Shown here: positions 1-6,082 of the stretch, in pieces
How positions within the stretch are numbered: the first letter of the stretch is position 1
Layout of the letters: each line of letters opens with the position of its first letter
From: a virus
Virus record (IMG/VR): IMGVR_UViG_3300020029_000044
Span: 1-6,082 of that record
Length of the DNA stretch: 6,082 bases
Strand: one strand, 5' to 3'
The notes under the pieces: model-generated
Seen by the model: the letters and a program-made list of their open reading frames with translations, nothing else
Database searches by the model: none
Told to the model about the DNA's origin: nothing
Position numbers and translations under genes: made by a program

Positions 1-121
1 GCGCGGTACTGTGTTAAATATGTTGTTAAACAGATTGGATTTGATTTTGAACAAATCCGAGATAAGTATGTTACTGTAGATGGAAAAATTCAATCATTGT
101 CTTCCCTTCTTGAGCACAAAC
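1..121. repeat. Terminal direct repeat, copy 1 (wrap-around of a circular genome; unit length 5961 nt)
   Basis: Read base by base: 1..121 (gcgcggtactgtgttaaatatg...cttgagcacaaac) is identical to 5962..6082. The repeat lies inside a coding region and restores one continuous ORF when the ends are joined. That is the signature of a circular contig written with an overlap. Confidence 0.97.
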
Positions 122-552
122 GCTACACTCGGAAGTTTGTCAGTGCTGGAGTTGGTGATTTTCTTGGCTATAATCCCCGTCCTTCTGCTCGTGTTACGTC
201 TTGGTCTTATATGGACCCTTCGAAAGGCATCGTATATAATTACGCGATCCCTCGATACTATGATCGGTACCTTAAACCAGAAGACGAAAGACGAAAAGCC
301 ATATTGGCTGCTGATGCGTATTCACGTTTTAGCAAGTCTTCTTTGGTGCGTCATATCGTTTCTTTGTGTGTTGCATCTTTCCTTCCCGCTTCCTCCGTAT
401 CCGGTCGAGATACATACACCTGGGAACAAAAGCAAGTGTTGAAATTTCGTGCCTCGAAGCGTAGGATGCCCGACCTGGATCCGCCAACCTTCCTGGATAG
501 GGACATCTTGCGCTTCTGGCGCGACGAATATAATCTTCAACTAACTATTTGA
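1..552 (+). CDS. VP4: Replication initiation protein VP4, C-terminal part (wraps from 5443..5961)
   Basis: Frame 1 is open from base 1 to TGA 550..552. The track shows only 97..552, starting from an internal TTG. The catalytic motif YCVKYVVK is at 7..30. The reading frame is continuous with 5443..5961 through the terminal repeat. Confidence 0.93.
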   Translation, partial: ARYCVKYVVKQIGFDFEQIRDKYVTVDGKIQSLSSLLEHKRYTRKFVSAGVGDFLGYNPRPSARVTSWSYMDPSKGIVYNYAIPRYYDRYLKPEDERRKAILAADAYSRFSKSSLVRHIVSLCVASFLPASSVSGRDTYTWEQKQVLKFRASKRRMPDLDPPTFLDRDILRFWRDEYNLQLTI

Positions 553-554
553 TT

Positions 555-2348
555 ATGGGAAAACAACCCTTCATTTCGCATGCTGTGAATGGCTACTCTC
601 GCTACGACGTTCCCGAGAGCAAGGCCTTTACGTGCACACCGGGTATTTTGTATCCAGTGCGCGTCGATTTTATTAATGCACGTGATCGTGTATCTATCGA
701 TCAGGGTATTGATGTTCGTAGTAATTCTCTTGCTGTTCCGTCATTCAACCCCTACACTGTTCGACTTCACCGTTTTTGGGTGCCGCTTCAGTTGTATCAC
801 CCCGAGTTGAGGACGAATAGTAGTAAGTTCGACATGAACAATTTAAGTTTGAATTTTGTCGCCGCCTCATCGACTGCGTCTTATCCGTATACTACTAACA
901 ATTACCCTTATTCCAACTCACTGCTTCGCTGGCTGCGTATTGTTCCAGCCACTATTCCAGTGACGACTTCTAGCAATGTTCCCATGTCGGCCAACCTTTC
1001 GACTGCCCAATTGGGACACCCCCTGGGTTGGTGTACTGCCGATTCCTATCTTGCTTATTGGGATATTGTTCGCAACTATTACAGCTACTCTCAGTGGGGT
1101 CTCTACTCTTTTGCCTGGCCTAGTAGTTGGTATTTCATTCCCAATAACACTGGCACCGCATATAACGTTTCCCAGTTCAGTGACAAGCAGTCGTTTTTCA
1201 CACAAAGGTTCGGAAATCTCGAATTCCTGGATGCTTATTTTGAGAGCCAGTTCTATCCTTCGGCCGTGCCGTCGTCGAACAATACGTATAATAGAGGAAA
1301 CCTTTTTTCTCAGATATTGCTCTCCGATCTTGGCGCTACGATTACTGCTTCCAAGGACGGCTATCCCGTTTCCACTATTTACCCTGGAAGTACCTCGCTG
1401 ACTGCTGCAGGTCCTGCGGATCAGTTTGCCGTTGAACCTGGTACTACGGACGTTACTACGCTTGGAGCATTTCTTGTATCCCATCCGATGGCTGTTGTAC
1501 CTGCGAACCCTGACCGTTACAGTCGTTTACTCCCTGTTGGTAGTTCCGAGGGCGTTTCCATGTCTGGTGTTTCAACTATTCCACAATTGGCTATTGCTTC
1601 ACGTCTCCAGGAATACAAGGATTTGCTTGGCGCTGGAGGTAGTCGATATAGCGACTGGCTTGAAACGTTCTTTGCATCAAGGATCGAACATGTTGATCGT
1701 CCCAAGCTTCTGTTTAGTGCCTCGCTGACCGTTAATGTCCAGGTTGTTATGAATCAAGCGGGTGCTAACAATTTTCAAGGTGATTCGTATTCCATGCCTC
1801 CTCTTGGTCAGCAAGGTGGTTCTATCGCATTTAACGAGCGCCTTGGTCGTCGTCAATCCTATTATTTTCGCGAGCCTGGCTACATGATTGATATGCTGAG
1901 TATTCGTCCTGTCTATTATTGGGCAGGTATCTACCCCGACTATCTCCATTATACCGGTCCTGACTACTTCAATCCGATCTACAATGATATCGGATACCAG
2001 GATGTTCCTGGATTTCAGTTTGGTTTTGGAACTACATCCACTGCGGAAACCGTGGCTTACGAGCCTTGCTTTAACGAGTTTCGATCTTCTTACGACGAGG
2101 TTCTCGGTCAGCTGTCTCGATTCCAGGGTGCTTCCAGCGCTCTACCTCTTTACTCCTATTGGGTGCAACAGCGCGTTTTGTCGGCGAGCTACAATCAGTA
2201 TTATTCCCTCCTGTTTGTGGATTTGGATCAGGTGAACTCGCCGTTCCTCTCCAGGAGAGAAGATAATTTCTTCGTTAATCTCTCGTATTCTGTTCAGAAG
2301 AAGAATTTGGTTAATAAAACATTTGCAACTCGTTTGTCCAATCGCTAA
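555..2348 (+). CDS. VP1: Major capsid protein VP1 (phiX174 F homologue, large gokushovirus/alpavirus-type form)
   Basis: 597 aa counted from ATG 555. The track start at 549 is a TTG overlapping the Rep stop, so the ATG two codons downstream is preferred. This is the largest ORF and has T-rich third codon positions. The N-terminal block FTCTPGILYPVRVDFINARDRVSI...VRLHRFWVPLQLY resembles the conserved N-terminal strands of Microviridae capsid proteins, including the FFVP.R-type block. At about 600 aa it fits capsids that carry the large surface insertion and have no separate spike (G) gene. Confidence 0.95.
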   Translation: MGKQPFISHAVNGYSRYDVPESKAFTCTPGILYPVRVDFINARDRVSIDQGIDVRSNSLAVPSFNPYTVRLHRFWVPLQLYHPELRTNSSKFDMNNLSLNFVAASSTASYPYTTNNYPYSNSLLRWLRIVPATIPVTTSSNVPMSANLSTAQLGHPLGWCTADSYLAYWDIVRNYYSYSQWGLYSFAWPSSWYFIPNNTGTAYNVSQFSDKQSFFTQRFGNLEFLDAYFESQFYPSAVPSSNNTYNRGNLFSQILLSDLGATITASKDGYPVSTIYPGSTSLTAAGPADQFAVEPGTTDVTTLGAFLVSHPMAVVPANPDRYSRLLPVGSSEGVSMSGVSTIPQLAIASRLQEYKDLLGAGGSRYSDWLETFFASRIEHVDRPKLLFSASLTVNVQVVMNQAGANNFQGDSYSMPPLGQQGGSIAFNERLGRRQSYYFREPGYMIDMLSIRPVYYWAGIYPDYLHYTGPDYFNPIYNDIGYQDVPGFQFGFGTTSTAETVAYEPCFNEFRSSYDEVLGQLSRFQGASSALPLYSYWVQQRVLSASYNQYYSLLFVDLDQVNSPFLSRREDNFFVNLSYSVQKKNLVNKTFATRLSNR

Positions 2349-2360
2349 TACATTAATCTT

Positions 2361-2657
2361 ATGGCACTTGATTGGTTACTTGAGGACGCCCCCGCTTATG
2401 TTTCTCGTGGGCAGCGCATCCTCTCCGTTCTTAATGGTTCTGGCTCTGTCGATATTCTTCCTGGTCGTCCGGACGTGACGGCGGAGCCCGCTGACTTCGA
2501 TAAGGGTGAGAAGTTTGACCCTGATATTGATTTTGATCCTAATGCTTTCTCTCGTATGGATAAGTTTGACGGCCTTGAGGTAGGTCAAGAACTTATTGAT
2601 TTAGAGTTGGATAGACCGAGGTCTGCTTCTAAATCTGCCGATTCTGAAGAAAAATAG
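2361..2657 (+). CDS. Small acidic protein, possible internal scaffolding protein (VP3-like by charge and position only)
   Basis: 98 aa from ATG 2361 to TAG 2655..2657, 12 nt after the VP1 stop. It has 23 D/E against 11 K/R, with repeated KFD/DPD motifs (EKFDPDIDFDP, DKFDG). Codon style matches the neighbouring genes. I recognise no family motif; the scaffold call is inference. Confidence 0.6.
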   Translation: MALDWLLEDAPAYVSRGQRILSVLNGSGSVDILPGRPDVTAEPADFDKGEKFDPDIDFDPNAFSRMDKFDGLEVGQELIDLELDRPRSASKSADSEEK

Positions 2658-2679
2658 TACTTTCTTTACTTGACGATAT

Positions 2680-2922
2680 ATGTTACGTGCGCGGACCCCT
2701 TCTGTGAGAGTCCGTGAATCGCTGAAGGTTATTGGTAACGACTGCAGGAGAGGCCGCGCATTTTTCTATCGTTCTTTAATTTTTAATTATGAAACTCAAA
2801 GATGTCTTGCACTCCAAAAAGTTTTGGGCGCTGGTTACGGCGATCGTGGCTGCCCTTGCGTCTTTTTTCCTCGAATCGTGTACGGCGCGACATTATGTCG
2901 TCCAGTCGGCGTCCTCCGTTAA
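2680..2922 (+). CDS. Hypothetical very basic Arg/Cys-rich 80-aa protein (possible DNA-binding/packaging protein); overlaps 2789..2986 in another frame
   Basis: ATG 2680, frame 1. It has 13 R + 2 K against 4 D/E, and 5 Cys. The codons (cgt, ggt, gct, cct, tct; G-rich first and pyrimidine-rich third positions, e.g. ggc gct ggt tac ggc gat cgt ggc tgc cct tgc gtc) resemble the preferred codons of VP1 and VP2. Two points count against it: its 5' third coincides with the 2688..2760 hairpin, and the start context (gatatATG) differs from the other genes. Confidence 0.3.
   Translation: MLRARTPSVRVRESLKVIGNDCRRGRAFFYRSLIFNYETQRCLALQKVLGAGYGDRGCPCVFFPRIVYGATLCRPVGVLR
2688..2765 (+). terminator. Long imperfect hairpin closed by a 7-bp GC helix and followed by T5 (possible terminator or ssDNA structural signal)
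   Basis: TGCGCGG (2688..2694) pairs perfectly with CCGCGCA (2754..2760). After a bulged A2695 the helix continues with C2696-G2753 and C2697-G2752. A C2698/A2751 mismatch follows, then 2699..2704 (CTTCTG) pairs with 2745..2750 (CAGGAG) with one G-T wobble. TTTTT lies at 2761..2765. The apical region of about 40 nt is only weakly paired, so this is not a textbook intrinsic terminator. Confidence 0.3.
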
Positions 2923-2986
2923 GTCCGGTGATACCACCAGAACTGTTATCACATACGAGCAGATAGGTAACTTTAAACGCCCTTAA
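2789..2986 (+). CDS. Small secreted/membrane protein with a lipoprotein-like signal peptide (65 aa)
   Basis: Sequence: MKLKDVLHSKK-FWALVTAIVAALASFFL-ESC-TARHYVV.... It has a Lys-rich n-region and a 17-residue hydrophobic h-region. A lipobox-like L-E-S-C follows, with Cys31 at 2879..2881, leaving a 35-aa mature part. The start context aattATG is the same as VP2. Its TAA (2984..2986) is separated from the VP2 ATG by only TT, the same junction seen at Rep/VP1 and at ORF65/Rep. Caveat: Ala codons are mostly GCG, which is atypical for this genome. Confidence 0.58.
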   Translation: MKLKDVLHSKKFWALVTAIVAALASFFLESCTARHYVVQSASSVKSGDTTRTVITYEQIGNFKRP

Positions 2987-2988
2987 TT

Positions 2989-4359
2989 ATGCCTGCTCCT
3001 GTTGCTGCTGCTCTTGCCGGAACTTCATTCGGCAAACAGTTATATCAAGGCGCCGCTCAATCTGGTGCATCTGGCCTTATCTCCGGTGGTATTGGTCAGA
3101 TTTTTGCCGGCATGAACGCCCGTCGCCAATGGAAATACACTCAGAAGCAAATGGCCCTTCAGCAGAAGTATGCCCTTGAGCAGATGGCCAAGCAGGCTGA
3201 GTACGAGTATGGTAATTGGCAAAAACAGTTTGATTACGAGAACGCATACAACGACCCGTCCAAGGTTTTTGATCGTTATAGCAAGGCCGGTGTTACGCCC
3301 GCTGCTGTTTTAGGCGGCTCCGGTGTTGGTGTCAATGCTACCATGTCCGGTGGTTCTGCCGGTTCTGTCGGTGCTTCCGGTCCTTCGGGTGGTTTTTCTG
3401 CCCCTGGTGTTGGTCCTCTCGATATGACCGCTGTTGGTCAGAACATGCTTACTGCTTCGGAATCTCGGCGTAATCAGGCTGCCGCTGCTCGCGATGAGGC
3501 TGAAGCTCGTTCTATTGACGATCAGAACGTTGGCAACCAACTTTATACTGCTATGGCCAGGGCCCGTGTAGGTCTTGATGAGGCGATTGCCAAACATAAC
3601 CTGGCTGCTCGCGATGTTCTTAAGGTTCAGGAGGATATAGAAAAGAATAATCGATTTATTTCCGATGCCACCCTCTTGAGTTCTGTTGATGAAAAGAAGA
3701 ATCAGGCTACCCTTGTTGCCGCAGAGGTTAAGCGTTTAGGTATTGAGAATGAAAATTTAGGCAAACTCATGTCTGCCCAGGCTTTTATGATGAATACCCA
3801 GGGCGAACTCAATCGGATTCTTGGTGAACAGGCTCGCGAGGTAATTCAATCTCTCCGCCTTGATAATCTTGATTCTGCTTATGAGCTTTCGCGTAATTGG
3901 GATGAGCGCTTTTCCGTTGAAATTCCTAATCCTCAGTATTCGGAAAATATCAGGAGTAGCAACCCTGTTGTTCGCGCCAATCCTGGCCCTCGATCCTTTA
4001 CCGTTTCAATGTCTCTTAAGGATTTCCTCGATAAGACTGTTGTGAATCAGGCGAATGCTTCTGAATTTCTCCCCGAACAGGCTCGCGTTGCCCTTCGTAA
4101 CGCAAAGCTTGATCCGTATATTGAAATTTCGAAAGCCCTTATTGGTGTTGCCGGTAGTATCACTGGTGCTGGTATTATCCGTGGTGGAATGTCGCGTGCG
4201 GCCGGCACTATTTCTGCCGGTGGTTCTTCCGCCAATTCCACGACCTCTTCCATGACCACTCGTTACAATTCCAGGGGCGATGTTGTTGGTTATGCCAAAA
4301 CTGAAATGAATCGTAGCGGTTATTCGAGTTCGTACAATAATTCTCGTCGTTCGCGTTAA
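2989..4359 (+). CDS. VP2: Minor capsid / DNA pilot protein VP2 (phiX174 H analogue)
   Basis: 456 aa. The N-terminus is Gly/Ala-rich and hydrophobic (PAPVAAALAGTSF...GLISGGIGQIFAG). A Q/K/M-rich helix follows, ending in DRYSKAGVTPAAVLGG, which resembles the AGLNP-type motif I recall from gokushovirus/alpavirus VP2 proteins. Next is a Gly/Ser-rich linker. The central region is long, charged and heptad-like (RNQAAAARDEAEAR...LDEAIAKHNLAARDVLKVQEDIEKNN...), consistent with a coiled-coil tube. The C-terminal tail is Gly-rich, then Ser/Asn/Arg-rich. It is the second-largest ORF, as expected for VP2. Confidence 0.87.
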   Translation: MPAPVAAALAGTSFGKQLYQGAAQSGASGLISGGIGQIFAGMNARRQWKYTQKQMALQQKYALEQMAKQAEYEYGNWQKQFDYENAYNDPSKVFDRYSKAGVTPAAVLGGSGVGVNATMSGGSAGSVGASGPSGGFSAPGVGPLDMTAVGQNMLTASESRRNQAAAARDEAEARSIDDQNVGNQLYTAMARARVGLDEAIAKHNLAARDVLKVQEDIEKNNRFISDATLLSSVDEKKNQATLVAAEVKRLGIENENLGKLMSAQAFMMNTQGELNRILGEQAREVIQSLRLDNLDSAYELSRNWDERFSVEIPNPQYSENIRSSNPVVRANPGPRSFTVSMSLKDFLDKTVVNQANASEFLPEQARVALRNAKLDPYIEISKALIGVAGSITGAGIIRGGMSRAAGTISAGGSSANSTTSSMTTRYNSRGDVVGYAKTEMNRSGYSSSYNNSRRSR

Positions 4360-4421: not shown

Positions 4422-4736
4422 ATGGAAAAGTGTAATTTTGATTCAAACTTACTGATTTTCAACGTTTTCGACTACATGTTCGTTGAGTGGCTTTCTCGTC
4501 GTGGCCTTTACTCGAAATTTGTAGCAAACCTTCCGGCTGTCAAGGACAATTCGCTGCCTCATCGCACTGCTGTTTGCGGACTTATTGCTTACGTCCTTGA
4601 TACCCCTTATCTCACCTTGTCTAACGCTGTCTTTTCGGCCTTCCCTTTTGATTCGACCCCCGAGGGCTCAACCTTCTGGCTCAACGTTTCGAGAGAGTGG
4701 GAACAATTTGTCAAATCGCTTCCTCATTTTATTTAA
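4422..4736 (+). CDS. Hypothetical protein, 104 aa (ORFan)
   Basis: ATG 4422; the track start at 4383 is a TTG inside the T-rich spacer. Stop is TAA 4734..4736. The protein is aromatic-rich, with a C-terminal block FPFDSTPEGSTFWLNVSREWEQFV. Codon style is consistent with the rest of the genome. I recognise no family. Confidence 0.55.
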   Translation: MEKCNFDSNLLIFNVFDYMFVEWLSRRGLYSKFVANLPAVKDNSLPHRTAVCGLIAYVLDTPYLTLSNAVFSAFPFDSTPEGSTFWLNVSREWEQFVKSLPHFI

Positions 4737-4750
4737 TCTGCTTTTTTGCT

Positions 4751-5074
4751 ATGACACAGGTTCATCTTGTTCTTCGACGTATCAATCCTTCGCTTAAGAT
4801 TGATCTCGCCCAGGTTGGTTATATTGAGAATGGCCAGTTTGTTAGCCTTCCTGTTTCTTCCTTGAAAGATACTGTTCTTCCGACGCTGTTGAAAGCTGAT
4901 TCAATCTCCGACAGCTGTTATGTCTTCCATTCGGATGTGTCGTCCCTTGTCGTTAGCCTGTCTTCGCTTCCAGGGTTCGCTATCGAGTATTTTGACAATA
5001 CTTTGGTTGTTATGTTTGATTTTAATATTGATCTCCATGAAAGCGCGTCGAAAGAAGAAGGGAAAGGGGACTAG
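4751..5074 (+). CDS. Hypothetical protein, 107 aa (ORFan; beta-rich with an acidic/basic C-terminal tail)
   Basis: ATG 4751; the track start at 4697 is a GTG overlapping the previous ORF. Stop is TAG 5072..5074, and the gene begins 14 nt after the upstream stop. Sequence: MTQVHLVLRRINPSLKIDLAQVGYIENGQF...HESASKEEGKGD. I recognise no family. It could be a functional analogue of VP3 or VP5, but that is speculation. Confidence 0.55.
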   Translation: MTQVHLVLRRINPSLKIDLAQVGYIENGQFVSLPVSSLKDTVLPTLLKADSISDSCYVFHSDVSSLVVSLSSLPGFAIEYFDNTLVVMFDFNIDLHESASKEEGKGD

Positions 5075-5120
5075 AATCGTCACCCGCCCCCTTGGTGGTA
5101 AGGTACTTTAACTGGTTTTC

Positions 5121-5442: not shown

Positions 5443-6082
5443 ATGGCCTGCCAGTCTCCCATATGGATTCGCAACCGTCGTTATTACGACAGTAAGAACC
5501 CTTCCCGTTCTGGATCTGACGTCGCGCGTTCTGCGCTTGCGCTTCGCCCCTGGGATGTTTCCCGTCAGTGGCTCATGGTCCCTTGTGGCAGGTGTGATGA
5601 CTGTCTCCGTCGTCTTCGCAATGATTGGTTCGTTCGCCTGGAGCGCGAGTTGGCTCGTTGTAGAGCTGAATCGCAGCAGGCTATTTTTATTACCATAACT
5701 ATCAATCCCTCTCATTATAACGCTGCGCTTCTCGATCCTGCTTCATTTATTCGAAAATGGAATGAGAGAATCCGCCATCGGATTGGCCATTCCTTTAAGC
5801 ATTGTTTTTTTCAGGAATTCGGCACGCATCCGGAAATCGGATCTGAGCCTCGTCTTCATTTTCATGGATTCCTGTTTGCAACAAACGTCCTGTATAATGA
5901 AATTCGATCTGCCGTTTCTGATCTTGGGTTCGTCTGGCTTTCAAAGGCCACACTTAAGCGCGCGCGGTACTGTGTTAAATATGTTGTTAAACAGATTGGA
6001 TTTGATTTTGAACAAATCCGAGATAAGTATGTTACTGTAGATGGAAAAATTCAATCATTGTCTTCCCTTCTTGAGCACAAAC
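5443..6082 (+). CDS. VP4: Replication initiation protein (Microviridae VP4 / phiX174 gpA-like HUH rolling-circle endonuclease), N-terminal part; continues at 1..552
   Basis: ATG at 5443. Frame 1 stays open to the last base of the window. 5962 is a codon start and equals position 1, so the ORF continues in frame 1 to TGA 550..552 (1071 nt, 356 aa in total). My translation begins MACQSPIWIRNRRYY. It contains PCGRCDDC (5581..5604), FITITI (5686..5703, HUH motif I) and RLHFHGFLF (HFH at 5857..5865, HUH motif II). It also contains YCVKYVVK (5968..5991 = 7..30, two-tyrosine motif III; compare phiX174 gpA YVAKYVNK). The ORF is not in the supplied track because there is no in-window stop. Confidence 0.93.
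   Translation, partial: MACQSPIWIRNRRYYDSKNPSRSGSDVARSALALRPWDVSRQWLMVPCGRCDDCLRRLRNDWFVRLERELARCRAESQQAIFITITINPSHYNAALLDPASFIRKWNERIRHRIGHSFKHCFFQEFGTHPEIGSEPRLHFHGFLFATNVLYNEIRSAVSDLGFVWLSKATLKRARYCVKYVVKQIGFDFEQIRDKYVTVDGKIQSLSSLLEHK
5962..6082. repeat. Terminal direct repeat, copy 2 (same sequence as 1..121)
   Basis: Identical to 1..121; the offset is exactly 5961 nt. Confidence 0.97.

What the first reader, a model, noticed from the sequence alone, without database searches (positions are those of the whole stretch)
2680..2986. Overlapping ORF pair: a very basic protein and a 65-aa prolipoprotein-like protein (candidate lysis or exclusion factor)
Two ATG-initiated ORFs overlap by 134 nt (2789..2922) in different frames. 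Frame 2 encodes a textbook signal-peptide layout: MKLKDVLHSKK, then a 17-residue hydrophobic core, then L-E-S-C. After cleavage at Cys31 this would leave a 35-residue lipid-anchored peptide. That size class matches bacteriocin release (colicin lysis) lipoproteins, Rz1-type o-spanins and phage exclusion lipoproteins such as Cor/Llp. Gokushovirus-like microviruses have no recognised lysis gene, and phiX174 solves lysis with a small membrane protein (E) overprinted on gene D. Frame 1 encodes an 80-aa protein with net charge of about +11 and codon usage typical of the genome; it could be a J/VP5-like DNA-binding protein. Genuine dual coding would recreate the D/E-style architecture in a distant microvirus. 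The TAA-TT-ATG coupling of the frame-2 ORF to VP2 supports its expression.
Basis: partly seen in the sequence, partly recalled or inferred. Interest (0 to 1): 0.7.

Follow-up and report, generated by a model that had tools for sequence, protein, structure and literature searches.

The report
Microvirus lipoprotein gene, not dual coding
Only one of the two overlapping reading frames is a real gene, encoding a tiny lipid-anchored envelope protein found in hundreds of gut microviruses; the "basic protein" frame is a chance ORF lying over a conserved, folded non-coding element.

Summary
The window is a complete circular microvirus genome (5961 nt plus 121 nt of terminal redundancy). Both ORFs exist exactly as described.

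The 65-aa ORF (2789..2986) is a real gene. It belongs to a family of at least 669 protein clusters, nearly all on ~6-kb microvirus contigs or microvirus prophages of Bacteroidota. The Cys is invariant, the lipobox context is canonical in most members, codon-position variation is classic, and the tight junction to VP2 is kept.

The 80-aa ORF (2680..2922) is not a gene. In 141 distinct relatives the ORF from the same ATG stops early (77), runs in frame into the lipoprotein gene (56) or overlaps it by less than 100 nt (6). Only 2 overlap it out of frame by 100 nt or more. Its frame carries stops in 15 of 28 close relatives.

Its 5' third is a non-coding element (about 2664..2777) with invariant flanks, an invariant 8-bp stem and a hairpin with many compensatory changes. 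The structure is specific to the + strand, occurs once per genome and matches no Rfam family.

Function is inferred, not shown. My best guess is an envelope-directed late lipopeptide for lysis or release, resembling colicin-lysis proteins. Exclusion is the main rival. A genuinely overprinted 2-TM gene (80..442, inside Rep) and a 24-aa J-like peptide (5037..5111) lie elsewhere.

The parts
2789..2986 (+). Real gene: 65-aa prolipoprotein-like protein (stop included)
   Evidence: tblastn finds it in 67 phage records. A profile search finds 669 clusters of about 61-68 aa and 84 clusters at 50% identity. There are no stops in 28 of 28 aligned relatives, and diversity follows pi3 > pi1 > pi2. A small lipoprotein ORF sits at this position in 141 of 142 distinct loci.
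2789..2878 (+). Predicted signal peptide: n-region MKLKDVLHSKK, then h-region F12-L28, then E-S
   Evidence: Read from the sequence. AlphaFold2 places a helix at residues 10-32 with pLDDT 85-91. KKFWTL[VI]xAIVAALxAFF is nearly invariant in the lineage.
2870..2881 (+). Lipobox L-E-S-C, with Cys31 at 2879..2881
   Evidence: Cys is present in 120 of 120 listed homologues. 111 of 120 fit a PROSITE PS51257-type pattern; the 9 misfits are the LESC subgroup, which includes the window. 68 of 83 distant representatives fit.
2879..2983 (+). Predicted mature lipopeptide, Cys31 plus 34 residues (CTARHYVVQSASSVKSGDTTRTVITYEQIGNFKRP), predicted beta-hairpin
   Evidence: AlphaFold2 predicts strands at 36-45 and 48-57 with low confidence, pLDDT about 58-62. 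The motif H.V.QS...GD......I.YEQ.G is kept in distant members that have unrelated signal peptides.
2984..2991 (+). TAA-TT-ATG junction between the lipoprotein gene and VP2
   Evidence: Annotated relatives keep 1-2 nt between the stop and the VP2 ATG.
2680..2922 (+). 80-aa ORF: not a gene (chance ORF over a non-coding element and the 5' part of the lipoprotein gene)
   Evidence: The ORF from the homologous ATG is 7-158 codons long. Of 141 loci, 77 stop before the lipoprotein ATG, 56 read through in frame, 6 overlap out of frame by less than 100 nt, and 2 by 100 nt or more. In the overlap, 15 of 28 relatives have a stop, and identity is 0.48 against 0.78 for the 65-aa frame. No hits in Pfam or PHROGs.
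2664..2686 (+). Invariant 5' flank of the element (CTTTACTTGACGATATATGTTAC), containing the ATG of the spurious ORF
   Evidence: Alignment of 32 relatives. The pattern occurs once per genome in at least 119 IMG/VR microvirus contigs.
2687..2694 (+). P1 5' arm (GTGCGCGG)
   Evidence: It pairs with 2754..2761. The 8 bp never change on both sides; the changes seen are G-C to G-U.
2695..2736 (+). P2 hairpin (apical loop 2708..2718, conserved GAGTNNGTGAA)
   Evidence: 7 of 10 main-stem pairs show compensatory changes on a structure-blind MAFFT alignment. 36 double-change cells are seen against 12.0 +/- 3.4 in shuffles (0 of 500), and slid controls give 10 or fewer. On 85 distinct sequences the count is 163 against 42.8.
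2737..2753 (+). Conserved unpaired segment (AACGACTGCAGGAGAGG)
   Evidence: An A[AG]CG...RAG.G motif is kept in all five unrelated core types.
2754..2761 (+). P1 3' arm (CCGCGCAT)
2762..2777 (+). Invariant T-rich 3' flank (TTTTCTATCGTTCTTT)
   Evidence: Most conserved stretch of the genome, and not part of the pattern used to collect the relatives.
2361..2657 (+). Upstream gene: acidic 98-aa protein (context; possible scaffold)
   Evidence: Found in 114 of 117 genomes at a median 80% identity with no stops. No family match.
2989..4359 (+). Downstream gene: VP2 DNA pilot protein (context)
   Evidence: phrog_8689, pilot protein, E = 5e-6. Annotated as DNA pilot protein in relatives.

Best explanation
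The region holds one protein gene and one non-coding element, not two overlapping genes.

(1) ORF 2789..2986 encodes a 65-aa precursor with a lipoprotein-type signal peptide. After export, lipidation and cleavage before Cys31 (inferred), it would leave a lipid-anchored peptide of Cys31 plus 34 residues, probably a beta-hairpin, in the envelope of a Bacteroidota host. It is made together with the late pilot protein VP2.

(2) The 80-aa ORF is accidental. Its first ~100 nt lie on a conserved structured element (2664..2777). The element has invariant flanks, an invariant 8-bp stem P1 followed by a T-run, and a covarying hairpin P2, and it acts in the + strand, either as viral ssDNA or as mRNA. The rest of the ORF is an unconstrained alternative frame of the lipoprotein gene.

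(3) Function, inferred only. The lipopeptide is most likely a core late envelope-directed factor for lysis or release. It would work like a colicin-lysis (bacteriocin release) lipoprotein, possibly together with the overprinted 2-TM protein encoded inside Rep. I put this at about 0.45, exclusion or receptor masking at about 0.25, and other roles at the remainder.

(4) The element's role is unresolved. My ranking is: complementary-strand origin recognised by a host enzyme (about 0.35), terminator/attenuator in front of the lipoprotein-VP2 block (about 0.3), Rep origin (about 0.2).
For: Gene is real:
- tblastn finds it in 67 phage records, 23 of them covering at least 80% of the query.
- A profile search finds 669 clusters of about 61-68 aa, almost all on contigs of about 6 kb or less, and 84 clusters at 50% identity.
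- In 28 aligned genes, pi1/pi2/pi3 are about 0.2/0.07/0.45, with no stop in any.

Lipoprotein:
- Cys is present in 120 of 120 homologues, in the context [LVAT][STVAEG][GSA]C, and 111 of 120 fit the PROSITE-type rule.
- Distant members keep the lipobox and the mature motif while having unrelated signal peptides.
- The AlphaFold2 model shows a helix at 10-32 followed by a hairpin.

Bacteroidota host:
- Homologues sit in integrated microvirus prophages next to DUF4199 and DUF4293 genes, and in Alistipes montrealensis.
- No Shine-Dalgarno motif precedes any gene in the window.

Core late gene:
- 141 of 142 loci carry a small lipoprotein ORF in this slot, and one of them is a non-homologous 53-aa lipoprotein.
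- The junction to VP2 is conserved.
- No M15 peptidase occurs in any of about 160 loci, whereas the peptidase-bearing Bacteroides microvirus phiHBP1 has no such lipoprotein.

80-aa ORF is spurious.

Element:
- Alignment and covariation.
- 150 G-U against 4 A-C pairs, so the structure is specific to the + strand.
- Five unrelated cores sit between invariant P1 arms.
- One copy per genome.
- No Rfam family.
Against: - The window's own lipobox has Glu at position -2 (LESC), which lies outside the canonical set. No SignalP or LipoP run was possible and there is no experiment.
- The h-region is more conserved than is usual for a cleaved signal peptide. Synonymous diversity is also lower in codons 9-31 (about 0.3 against 0.5). 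I cannot explain this dip. It could mean the helix itself is the effector, or that a further nucleic-acid constraint acts there.
- Nothing links the protein to any lysis or exclusion family by sequence or fold.
- A second, arguably better, lysis candidate exists: the 2-TM ORF inside Rep.
- Relatives in a prophage lineage are about 170-220 aa long with a basic C-terminal tail, which does not fit a simple lipopeptide model.
- P1 never covaries, so its pairing is inferred from complementarity alone.
Confidence: 0.8

Rival explanations
1. The lipoprotein is a superinfection-exclusion or receptor-masking factor, like T5 Llp or phi80/N15 Cor. Anchored in the outer membrane, it would inactivate the phage's own receptor. 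This would protect lysogens, or keep progeny from being lost on cell debris and vesicles.
For: - Most characterised small phage lipoproteins outside spanins are exclusion factors (my own knowledge: Llp, Cor, Ltp).
- Homologues occur in integrated prophages.
- The gene moves between genome positions in different microvirus lineages, like an accessory module.
- It sits next to the pilot gene, as llp sits next to the T5 receptor-binding gene (my own knowledge).
- The lipoprotein and VP2 N-terminal block is the variable module of the genome.
Against: - It is present in essentially every genome of the lineage (141 of 142), which is unlike patchy exclusion genes.
- The mature motif is conserved across very distant lineages, which argues for a conserved host target rather than a lineage-specific receptor.
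- At about 30-35 residues (Cys included), the mature peptide is half the size of Llp or Cor.
- No sequence similarity to those families.
- In gokushoviruses, exclusion is attributed to the hypervariable region of the pilot protein itself (PMC10002423, citing Kirchberger et al. 2021).
Confidence: 0.25
2. The protein is not lipid-modified. It would be a bitopic inner-membrane protein whose conserved N-terminal helix is the effector, like the transmembrane domain of phiX174 E, which blocks MraY (a single-gene-lysis 'protein antibiotic').
For: - Within this lineage, 15 of the 18 most conserved positions lie in residues 9-31.
- The C-terminal part occurs in two quite different versions behind the same helix.
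- The window's lipobox is non-canonical at position -2.
Against: - The Cys is invariant, with Gly, Ser or Ala at -1, in 120 of 120 homologues.
- Distant members have different helices but keep the lipobox and the mature motif. That is the pattern expected of a cleaved lipoprotein.
Confidence: 0.12
3. Genuine dual coding: an 80-aa basic DNA-binding protein is overprinted on the start of the lipoprotein gene.
For: - In this genome the ORF is open, starts with ATG and has a net charge of +11.
- Its first 35 residues give strong tblastn hits.
- Synonymous diversity of the lipoprotein gene is somewhat lower in codons 9-31.
Against: - Only 2 of 141 relatives have a comparable out-of-frame overlap.
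- The frame has stops in 15 of 28 relatives, with identity 0.48 against 0.78.
- The conserved 5' part tolerates indels that are not multiples of three, stops and complete core swaps, while base pairing is preserved.
- The dip in synonymous diversity does not match the extent of the ORF: codons 32-45 are at 0.46.
- By contrast, the positive control inside Rep shows a sharp drop from 0.5 to 0.22 that coincides exactly with a conserved 116-119-aa ORF.
Confidence: 0.03
4. The element is coding after all, as an N-terminal extension. The real product would be a protein of about 100 aa (MLRARTP... fused to the lipoprotein). It would be read directly in relatives where the frames coincide, and by a programmed frameshift in this genome.
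For: - 56 of 141 loci have the ATG in frame with the lipoprotein gene and no intervening stop.
- Gene callers report 100-aa proteins there.
Against: - The spacing modulo 3 is 0, 1 and 2 in 78, 41 and 22 loci, and 77 loci have stops.
- Insertions of 90-230 nt separate the two parts in some genomes.
- The lipoprotein's own ATG and n-region are kept in the in-frame genomes.
- An internal signal peptide with its Cys at residue 70 would be atypical.
- The in-frame genomes are largely one clade.
Confidence: 0.03

Closest known systems
Colicin lysis proteins / bacteriocin release proteins (Pfam PF02402 Lysis_col)
   Same: - A very small prolipoprotein, leaving a mature lipopeptide of about 30-35 residues.
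- No enzymatic domain.
- The signal peptide is unusually conserved. In release proteins the stable signal peptide contributes to lethality (my own knowledge).
- Plausible single-protein envelope permeabilisation in a genome with no muralytic enzyme.
   Different: - No detectable sequence similarity.
- Encoded by an ssDNA phage of Bacteroidota, not by an enterobacterial SOS-controlled plasmid operon.
- The mature part is a predicted beta-hairpin.
- Dependence on outer-membrane phospholipase is unknown.
Rz1-type o-spanins of tailed phages
   Same: Small outer-membrane lipoprotein encoded among late genes of a phage of a diderm host.
   Different: - No i-spanin partner: the upstream gene product is acidic and has no transmembrane segment.
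- No endolysin in the genome.
- The mature part has no Cys for intermolecular disulfides and is not proline-rich.
- No Pfam Rz1 match.
Phage exclusion lipoproteins Llp (T5) and Cor (phi80, N15, HK022)
   Same: Phage-encoded lipoprotein placed next to a host-recognition or DNA-delivery gene, and also present in prophages.
   Different: - About half their mature size.
- No sequence similarity.
- Near-universal presence in the lineage, and a mature motif conserved across distant lineages.
phiX174 D/E overprinting
   Different: It does not apply at 2680..2986. It does apply at 80..442: a conserved 116-119-aa two-helix ORF inside Rep, where Rep's synonymous-site diversity falls from about 0.5 to about 0.22.
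Single-strand (complementary-strand) origins: the G4 and phiX174 origins in the F-G intergenic region, and ssoA of rolling-circle plasmids
   Same: - Non-coding, one per genome, downstream of the capsid gene module.
- Strand-specific folded structure.
- Sequence-invariant base and short motifs around an interior that varies in sequence but keeps its structure.
- A TAGCGA/TAACGA motif resembles the ssoA CS-6 motif TAGCGT (my own knowledge).
   Different: - No sequence homology has been shown.
- The host is Bacteroidota.
- The function is untested.
- The P1 stem plus T-run equally resembles an intrinsic terminator with a branched interior.

Membership tests
Bacterial lipoprotein precursor (signal peptidase II substrate; PROSITE PS51257-type rule) | Positively charged n-region with K or R in the first 7 residues | tested here: met
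   MKLKDVLHSKK: K2, K4, K10 and K11.
Bacterial lipoprotein precursor (signal peptidase II substrate; PROSITE PS51257-type rule) | Uncharged hydrophobic h-region directly before the lipobox | tested here: met
   F12-L28, 17 residues. AlphaFold2 helix at 10-32.
Bacterial lipoprotein precursor (signal peptidase II substrate; PROSITE PS51257-type rule) | Lipobox [LVI][ASTVI][GAS]-C with Cys at position 15-35 | tested here: inconclusive
   The window has L-E-S-C31, and Glu at -2 lies outside the canonical set. 111 of 120 homologues (LSSC, VSGC, LTSC, AVSC and others) fit the rule, and all 9 misfits are the LESC subgroup.
Bacterial lipoprotein precursor (signal peptidase II substrate; PROSITE PS51257-type rule) | Invariance of the lipid-modified Cys across the family | tested here: met
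   120 of 120 homologues. It is an invariant column in A2 and A5. 68 of 83 representatives at 50% identity fit the strict pattern; the rest show near-variants, truncated or frameshifted products, or spurious matches.
Bacterial lipoprotein precursor (signal peptidase II substrate; PROSITE PS51257-type rule) | Actual diacylglyceryl modification and globomycin-sensitive cleavage | not testable with these tools
   Needs labelling and an inhibitor experiment.
Colicin lysis protein family (PF02402) | Sequence match to the family profile | tested here: not met
   No Pfam hit at E <= 1 for the window protein. None of 113 family members matches it.
Colicin lysis protein family (PF02402) | Mature lipopeptide of about 27-35 residues that causes quasi-lysis | tested here: inconclusive
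   The size criterion is met (about 35 residues in the window, about 30 in the second type). Activity was not tested.
Two-component spanin, o-spanin (Rz1-like) | Adjacent, overlapping or embedding i-spanin gene with an N-terminal transmembrane segment | tested here: not met
   The upstream 98-aa product is acidic with no hydrophobic segment. The downstream gene is VP2.
Two-component spanin, o-spanin (Rz1-like) | Endolysin and holin lysis cassette in the genome | tested here: not met
   No muralytic domain in any ORF. No M15 peptidase homologue in about 160 related loci.
Cor / Llp exclusion lipoproteins | Sequence or fold similarity to known members | tested here: not met
   No significant Pfam, PHROGs, NCBIfam or PADLOC match. 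Foldseek against PDB and BFVD finds nothing at E <= 0.001.
Overprinted (dual-coding) gene pair of the phiX174 D/E type | Both frames conserved as ORFs in relatives | tested here: not met
   The 80-aa frame has stops in 15 of 28 relatives. Only 2 of 141 loci have an out-of-frame overlap of 100 nt or more.
Overprinted (dual-coding) gene pair of the phiX174 D/E type | Suppressed synonymous variation that coincides with the overlap | tested here: inconclusive
   There is a mild dip (about 0.3 against 0.5) in codons 9-31 only, while codons 32-45 of the overlap are at 0.46. The positive control in Rep shows a sharp, coincident drop.
J / VP5-like DNA-binding protein (for the 80-aa ORF) | Conserved small basic ORF in relatives | tested here: not met
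   A conserved 24-aa basic peptide is instead at 5037..5111, in 92 of 118 genomes.
Any Rfam family (for the element 2664..2777) | Covariance-model match | tested here: not met
   cmscan of the whole window at E <= 10 gives no hit in 2600..2800.
Rho-independent terminator (for the element) | G+C-rich stem immediately followed by a T/U run | tested here: met
   P1, GTGCGCGG/CCGCGCAT, is followed by TTTTTCT.
Rho-independent terminator (for the element) | Simple hairpin with a short loop and a freely covarying stem | tested here: not met
   The interior is 57-77 nt and structured. P1 and about 23 nt of flank on each side are sequence-invariant. The consensus scan did not call it.

The most novel reading that the evidence does not exclude
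The lipoprotein would be the missing lysis or release effector of a large group of Bacteroidota-infecting microviruses that have neither an E-type gene nor a peptidase. It would be a lipoprotein-based, enzyme-free lysis device convergent with colicin release proteins. It may act together with the overprinted 2-TM protein inside Rep. The upstream structured element (stem plus U-run, with a start codon 7 nt in front of the stem) would gate how much transcription or translation reaches it. Alternatively, the same element is the first complementary-strand origin defined for non-Bullavirinae microviruses.
Probability: 0.3. Interest if true: 0.8.

Novelty: new variant of a known kind. Interest (0 to 1): 0.55.

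Why it matters
How most microviruses outside the phiX174 group lyse their hosts is unknown. The papers I could read name only phiX174 E and occasional M15 peptidases (PMC3394797, PMC9239249). None of the papers I searched links Microviridae with a lipobox or lipoprotein.

This work yields three concrete, testable objects:
- A small lipoprotein present in essentially every genome of an abundant gut microvirus lineage, and in prophages of Bacteroidota.
- A genuinely overprinted two-helix membrane protein inside Rep.
- A conserved + strand structured element that no RNA family describes. It is a candidate replication or expression signal.

It also corrects annotation. The 100-aa "proteins" called in many relatives, and the 80-aa ORF here, are artefacts of an open frame across a non-coding element.

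Tried and rejected
- **Family libraries.** Pfam, PHROGs, NCBIfam and PADLOC scans of both ORFs, and Pfam on 113 family members, gave no meaningful family, only noise driven by the transmembrane helix.
- **Structure.** The PDB sequence profile search found only insignificant lipoprotein-signal matches to NosL, E about 0.7. The AlphaFold2 model has mean pLDDT 69.8. Foldseek against PDB and BFVD found nothing at E <= 0.001.
- **RNA families and signals.** The Rfam scan gave nothing in the region. The sigma-70 promoter and simple terminator scan found nothing at the element. I saw no match to the Bacteroides -7/-33 promoter consensus by eye.
- **Outer stem.** Single-sequence folding predicts a stem GACGATA/TATCGTT. 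I rejected it because one-sided G-to-A changes in 10 of 32 relatives create A-C mismatches with no compensation.
- **dif/Xer-like attP reading of the element.** A related prophage is flanked by a dif-like repeat. However, the window has no dif arm above chance, 5 matches against 2.5 expected, and the flanks match dif only weakly.
- **Resemblance of the 5' flank (ACTTGAcgATAT) to the phiX174 origin (CAACTTGATATTAAT).** This is a 6-mer plus an AT run, not significant on its own, and the T before GA varies.
- **Peptidase co-occurrence.** No lipoprotein-bearing locus has an M15 peptidase, and phiHBP1 has the peptidase but no lipoprotein. The peptidase side is n = 1, so this is only suggestive.
- **Literature.** Kirchberger et al. 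2021 (PNAS) on microvirus exclusion is not held in the library, so I used secondary citations only.
Full report
**Context.** The window has a 121-nt terminal repeat, so it is a circular genome of 5961 nt. All genes lie on the + strand, in this order:
- Rep/VP4, wrapping 5443..6082 and 122..552;
- the major capsid protein, 549..2348 (Pfam Phage_F, phrog_514);
- an acidic 98-aa ORF, 2361..2657;
- the region of the finding;
- VP2 pilot protein, 2989..4359 (phrog_8689);
- several small ORFs.

The closest database relatives are unclassified faecal microviruses from pig, rodents, lemurs and tortoise, at 70-78% DNA identity over about half the genome.

An 80-aa ATG ORF is not unusual here. The capsid gene alone contains alternative-frame + strand ORFs of 83, 100 and 141 aa. 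The 80-aa frame scores -0.14 bits per codon under the genome's codon usage. In-frame capsid windows score +0.27 +/- 0.09, and off-frames score about -0.6 to -0.7. So its codon usage is not typical of the genome.

**The 65-aa ORF is a gene.**
- tblastn finds it in 67 phage records.
- A single-sequence search finds 17 close clusters.
- A profile search finds 669 clusters, almost all 61-68 aa and almost all on contigs of about 6 kb or less.
- An exhaustive HMM search finds 84 clusters at 50% identity.
- In 28 aligned 65-codon genes, nucleotide diversity is highest at third positions and lowest at second positions along the whole gene. No sequence has a stop.
- Relatives keep 1-2 nt between its stop and the VP2 start.
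- Databases call it 'hypothetical protein'. One automated name, 'chitin synthase regulator', has no support in any library.

**It looks like a lipoprotein precursor.**
- The Cys is present in 120 of 120 listed homologues, preceded by [LVAT][STVAEG][GSA].
- 111 of 120 fit a PROSITE PS51257-type rule. The 9 exceptions are exactly the LESC subgroup, to which the window belongs.
- Distant members (for example P0178-P0203) have unrelated n- and h-regions but keep the lipobox and the mature motif C-[ST]-x-[ST]-H-x-V-x-Q-S...G-D...I-x-Y-E-Q-x-G. This is what is expected if the mature lipopeptide is the functional part.
- AlphaFold2 gives a confident helix at 10-32 and a low-confidence beta-hairpin at 36-57.

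Two caveats apply:
- Glu at -2 is non-canonical.
- Within this lineage the h-region (KKFWTL[VI]xAIVAALxAFF) is more conserved than the mature part. The mature part occurs in two versions, HYVVQSASS...TITYEQ and AQAKVxRxGxHIDTVRVDYIIRS.

**Host.**
- Homologues lie in integrated microvirus prophages flanked by Bacteroidota-type genes (DUF4199, DUF4293, a glycosyltransferase, ZnuA) and in Alistipes montrealensis.
- No gene in the window has a Shine-Dalgarno motif; the leaders are A/T-rich. Established knowledge of Bacteroidota translation makes this fit such a host.

**The 80-aa ORF is not a gene.** tblastn with it matches relatives mainly over residues 1-35. That stretch contains a nearly invariant DNA motif, ATG(C/T)TA(C/T)GTGCGCGGAC. 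The ORF starting at that ATG, however, is anywhere from 7 to 158 codons long.

Among 141 distinct loci with a downstream lipoprotein ORF:

| Fate of the ORF from the conserved ATG | Loci |
|---|---|
| Stops before the lipoprotein ATG | 77 |
| Reads in frame into the lipoprotein gene (source of the 100-aa 'proteins' reported by gene callers) | 56 |
| Overlaps out of frame by less than 100 nt | 6 |
| Overlaps out of frame by 100 nt or more (the window type and L023) | 2 |

The distance from the ATG to the lipoprotein ATG ranges from 106 to 250 nt in the first set of relatives. Across the 141 loci it falls in all three classes modulo 3. Inside the overlap, the 80-aa frame has stops in 15 of 28 relatives and a mean identity of 0.48. 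The 65-aa frame has no stops and a mean identity of 0.78, at 0.76 nucleotide identity.

Synonymous diversity of the lipoprotein gene is somewhat lower in codons 9-31 (about 0.3) than in codons 32-65 (about 0.46-0.50). This dip does not follow the limits of the 80-aa ORF, and I cannot explain it.

**What the conserved 5' part is.** An alignment of 32 relatives shows the following features:
- invariant flanks, CTTTACTnGAyrATATATGyTAy and TTTTCTATCGTTCTTT;
- an invariant 8-bp stem P1, GTGCGCGG/CCGCGCAT (2687-2694 with 2754-2761);
- a hairpin P2 (2695-2736) whose stem varies by compensatory changes around a conserved loop.

On the structure-blind MAFFT alignment, 95% of cells are paired. 36 cells carry changes on both sides, against 12.0 +/- 3.4 in shuffles (0 of 500) and 10 or fewer when partners are slid. 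On 85 distinct sequences aligned to a covariance model, the figures are 163 against 42.8; this alignment leans toward the model.

Other properties of the element:
- Non-Watson-Crick pairs are 150 G-U against 4 A-C, so the fold belongs to the + strand, as virion DNA or as mRNA.
- At least five unrelated interiors of 57-77 nt sit between the same P1 arms. All keep an A[AG]CG...RAG.G stretch before the 3' arm.
- The element occurs once per genome in at least 119 IMG/VR microvirus contigs.
- It is absent from other microvirus lineages that carry the lipoprotein.
- It matches no Rfam family.
- It marks a sharp boundary between the conserved Rep-capsid-acidic module and the variable lipoprotein-VP2 module.

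One caveat on conservation: the relatives were collected with the 5' motif, so only the 3' flank and the structure are unbiased evidence.

**How the element might work (inference).** Sequence invariance of P1 and both flanks, around an interior that varies, argues for sequence-specific recognition rather than a mere hairpin. I rank the candidates as follows:
1. A complementary-strand origin read by a host enzyme on the incoming ssDNA. This would be analogous in position and logic to the G4 and phiX174 F-G intergenic origins and to plasmid ssoA.
2. A partial terminator or attenuator (P1 plus U-run) that lowers expression of the lipoprotein and VP2 relative to capsid.
3. The Rep nicking origin.

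None of these can be decided with the tools available.

**How the lipoprotein might work (inference).** These observations bear on its role:
- A small lipoprotein ORF occupies this slot in 141 of 142 loci, one of them a non-homologous 53-aa lipoprotein.
- It is co-expressed with a late structural gene.
- The mature part is only about 30-35 residues.
- The signal peptide is conserved.
- The genome and about 160 related loci have no muralytic enzyme, while the peptidase-bearing Bacteroides microvirus phiHBP1 lacks the lipoprotein (PMC13064476).

This favours a core lysis or release role that works like a colicin-lysis lipoprotein (about 0.45). An Llp/Cor-like exclusion role is the main rival (about 0.25). 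An E-like role for the helix itself comes third (about 0.12). Membership in any of those families is not supported by sequence or fold.

- ORF 80..442, in another frame inside Rep, is kept as a 116-119-aa ATG ORF in most relatives at 37-55% identity. It has two hydrophobic helices and a conserved tail, IPPYPVERRIRGSKSK. Synonymous diversity of Rep drops from about 0.5 to about 0.22 exactly across it. This is genuine overprinting and a holin- or E-like candidate.
- A 24-aa basic peptide, MKARRKKKGKGTRIVTRPLGGKVL (5037..5111), is conserved in 92 of 118 genomes. It resembles the J proteins of phiX174 and G4 in design.

**Literature.** Searches found no paper linking Microviridae with a lipobox or lipoprotein gene, or describing this element. 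Reviews of microvirus diversity mention only peptidases as lysis-associated accessory genes, and they explicitly omit overprinted genes (PMC9239249).

Noticed in passing
window 80..442 (+), inside the Rep gene in another frame: This is a genuinely overprinted gene. A 116-119-aa ATG ORF with two hydrophobic helices and a conserved tail (IPPYPVERRIRGSKSK) is kept in most relatives at 37-55% identity. Synonymous diversity of Rep falls from about 0.5 to about 0.22 exactly over the overlap. It has no family match. It is a holin- or phiX174-E-like lysis candidate.
   Followed up: yes
window 5037..5111 (+): A 24-aa basic mini-ORF, MKARRKKKGKGTRIVTRPLGGKVL, is conserved in 92 of 118 related genomes. 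It underlies a conserved DNA island at about 4981-5100 and resembles the J DNA-packaging peptides of phiX174 and G4 in design. It overlaps the end of ORF 4697..5074 in another frame.
   Followed up: partly
window 1..121 and 5962..6082: The two ends are an exact 121-nt terminal repeat, so the record is a circular 5961-nt genome and Rep runs across the ends.
   Followed up: yes
proteins P0122, P0128, P0129, P0132, P0139, P0153, P0169; locus L041 5953..6603: In a prophage lineage (for example Alistipes montrealensis) the lipoprotein ORF continues for about 130 more codons of S/T/P/L-rich sequence. It ends in a basic tail, RSRRGGRRKGRPRPKIKTIPLGGSHL, like the 24-aa peptide of the window. Whether this is one protein, dual coding or a gene-calling artefact is unexplained.
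   Followed up: partly
L039 2827..2857 and 8848..8878: A microvirus prophage of about 6.0 kb is flanked by a 31-nt direct repeat, ATCGTTATTATGTTAAATTAT.... The repeat contains the exact XerD arm of E. coli dif (TTATGTTAAAT), and the left copy completes a dif-like site. This points to Xer/dif integration in Bacteroidota microviruses. Two different prophage lineages sit next to znuA.
   Followed up: partly
L001 2330..2420; also L005, L010, L021 and L031, between the element and the lipoprotein ATG: An insertion of about 90 nt, G+C-rich, has a long inverted repeat (GGTGCCGCA...TGCGGCACC around CGGTTCGGAGAACCG). It is present in some relatives and absent from the window. It may be a second structured or mobile element.
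   Followed up: no
one IMG/VR locus among L042-L159, in the slot homologous to window 2789..2986: A non-homologous 53-aa lipoprotein, MKRIFSFFLILAVFVVVFASCAVSYSVRVINTCPDGSVDSTAIYIKSSARKVP, occupies the same position downstream of the element. It has no PHROGs match.
   Followed up: partly
window 2813..2881 (lipoprotein codons 9-31): Synonymous-site diversity is lower here (about 0.2-0.4) than in the rest of the gene (about 0.5). The dip does not coincide with the 80-aa ORF and has no explanation yet.
   Followed up: partly
window about 2780 and about 5400: There are sharp conservation boundaries. Rep, capsid, the acidic ORF and the element are conserved (0.6-0.9 identity across 116 genomes), while lipoprotein, VP2 and the small ORFs are variable (0.01-0.3). 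This suggests modular recombination with one junction at the element.
   Followed up: no
window: 25 nt upstream of each gene start: No Shine-Dalgarno-like motif precedes any gene, and the leaders are A/T-rich. This is consistent with a Bacteroidota host.
   Followed up: partly
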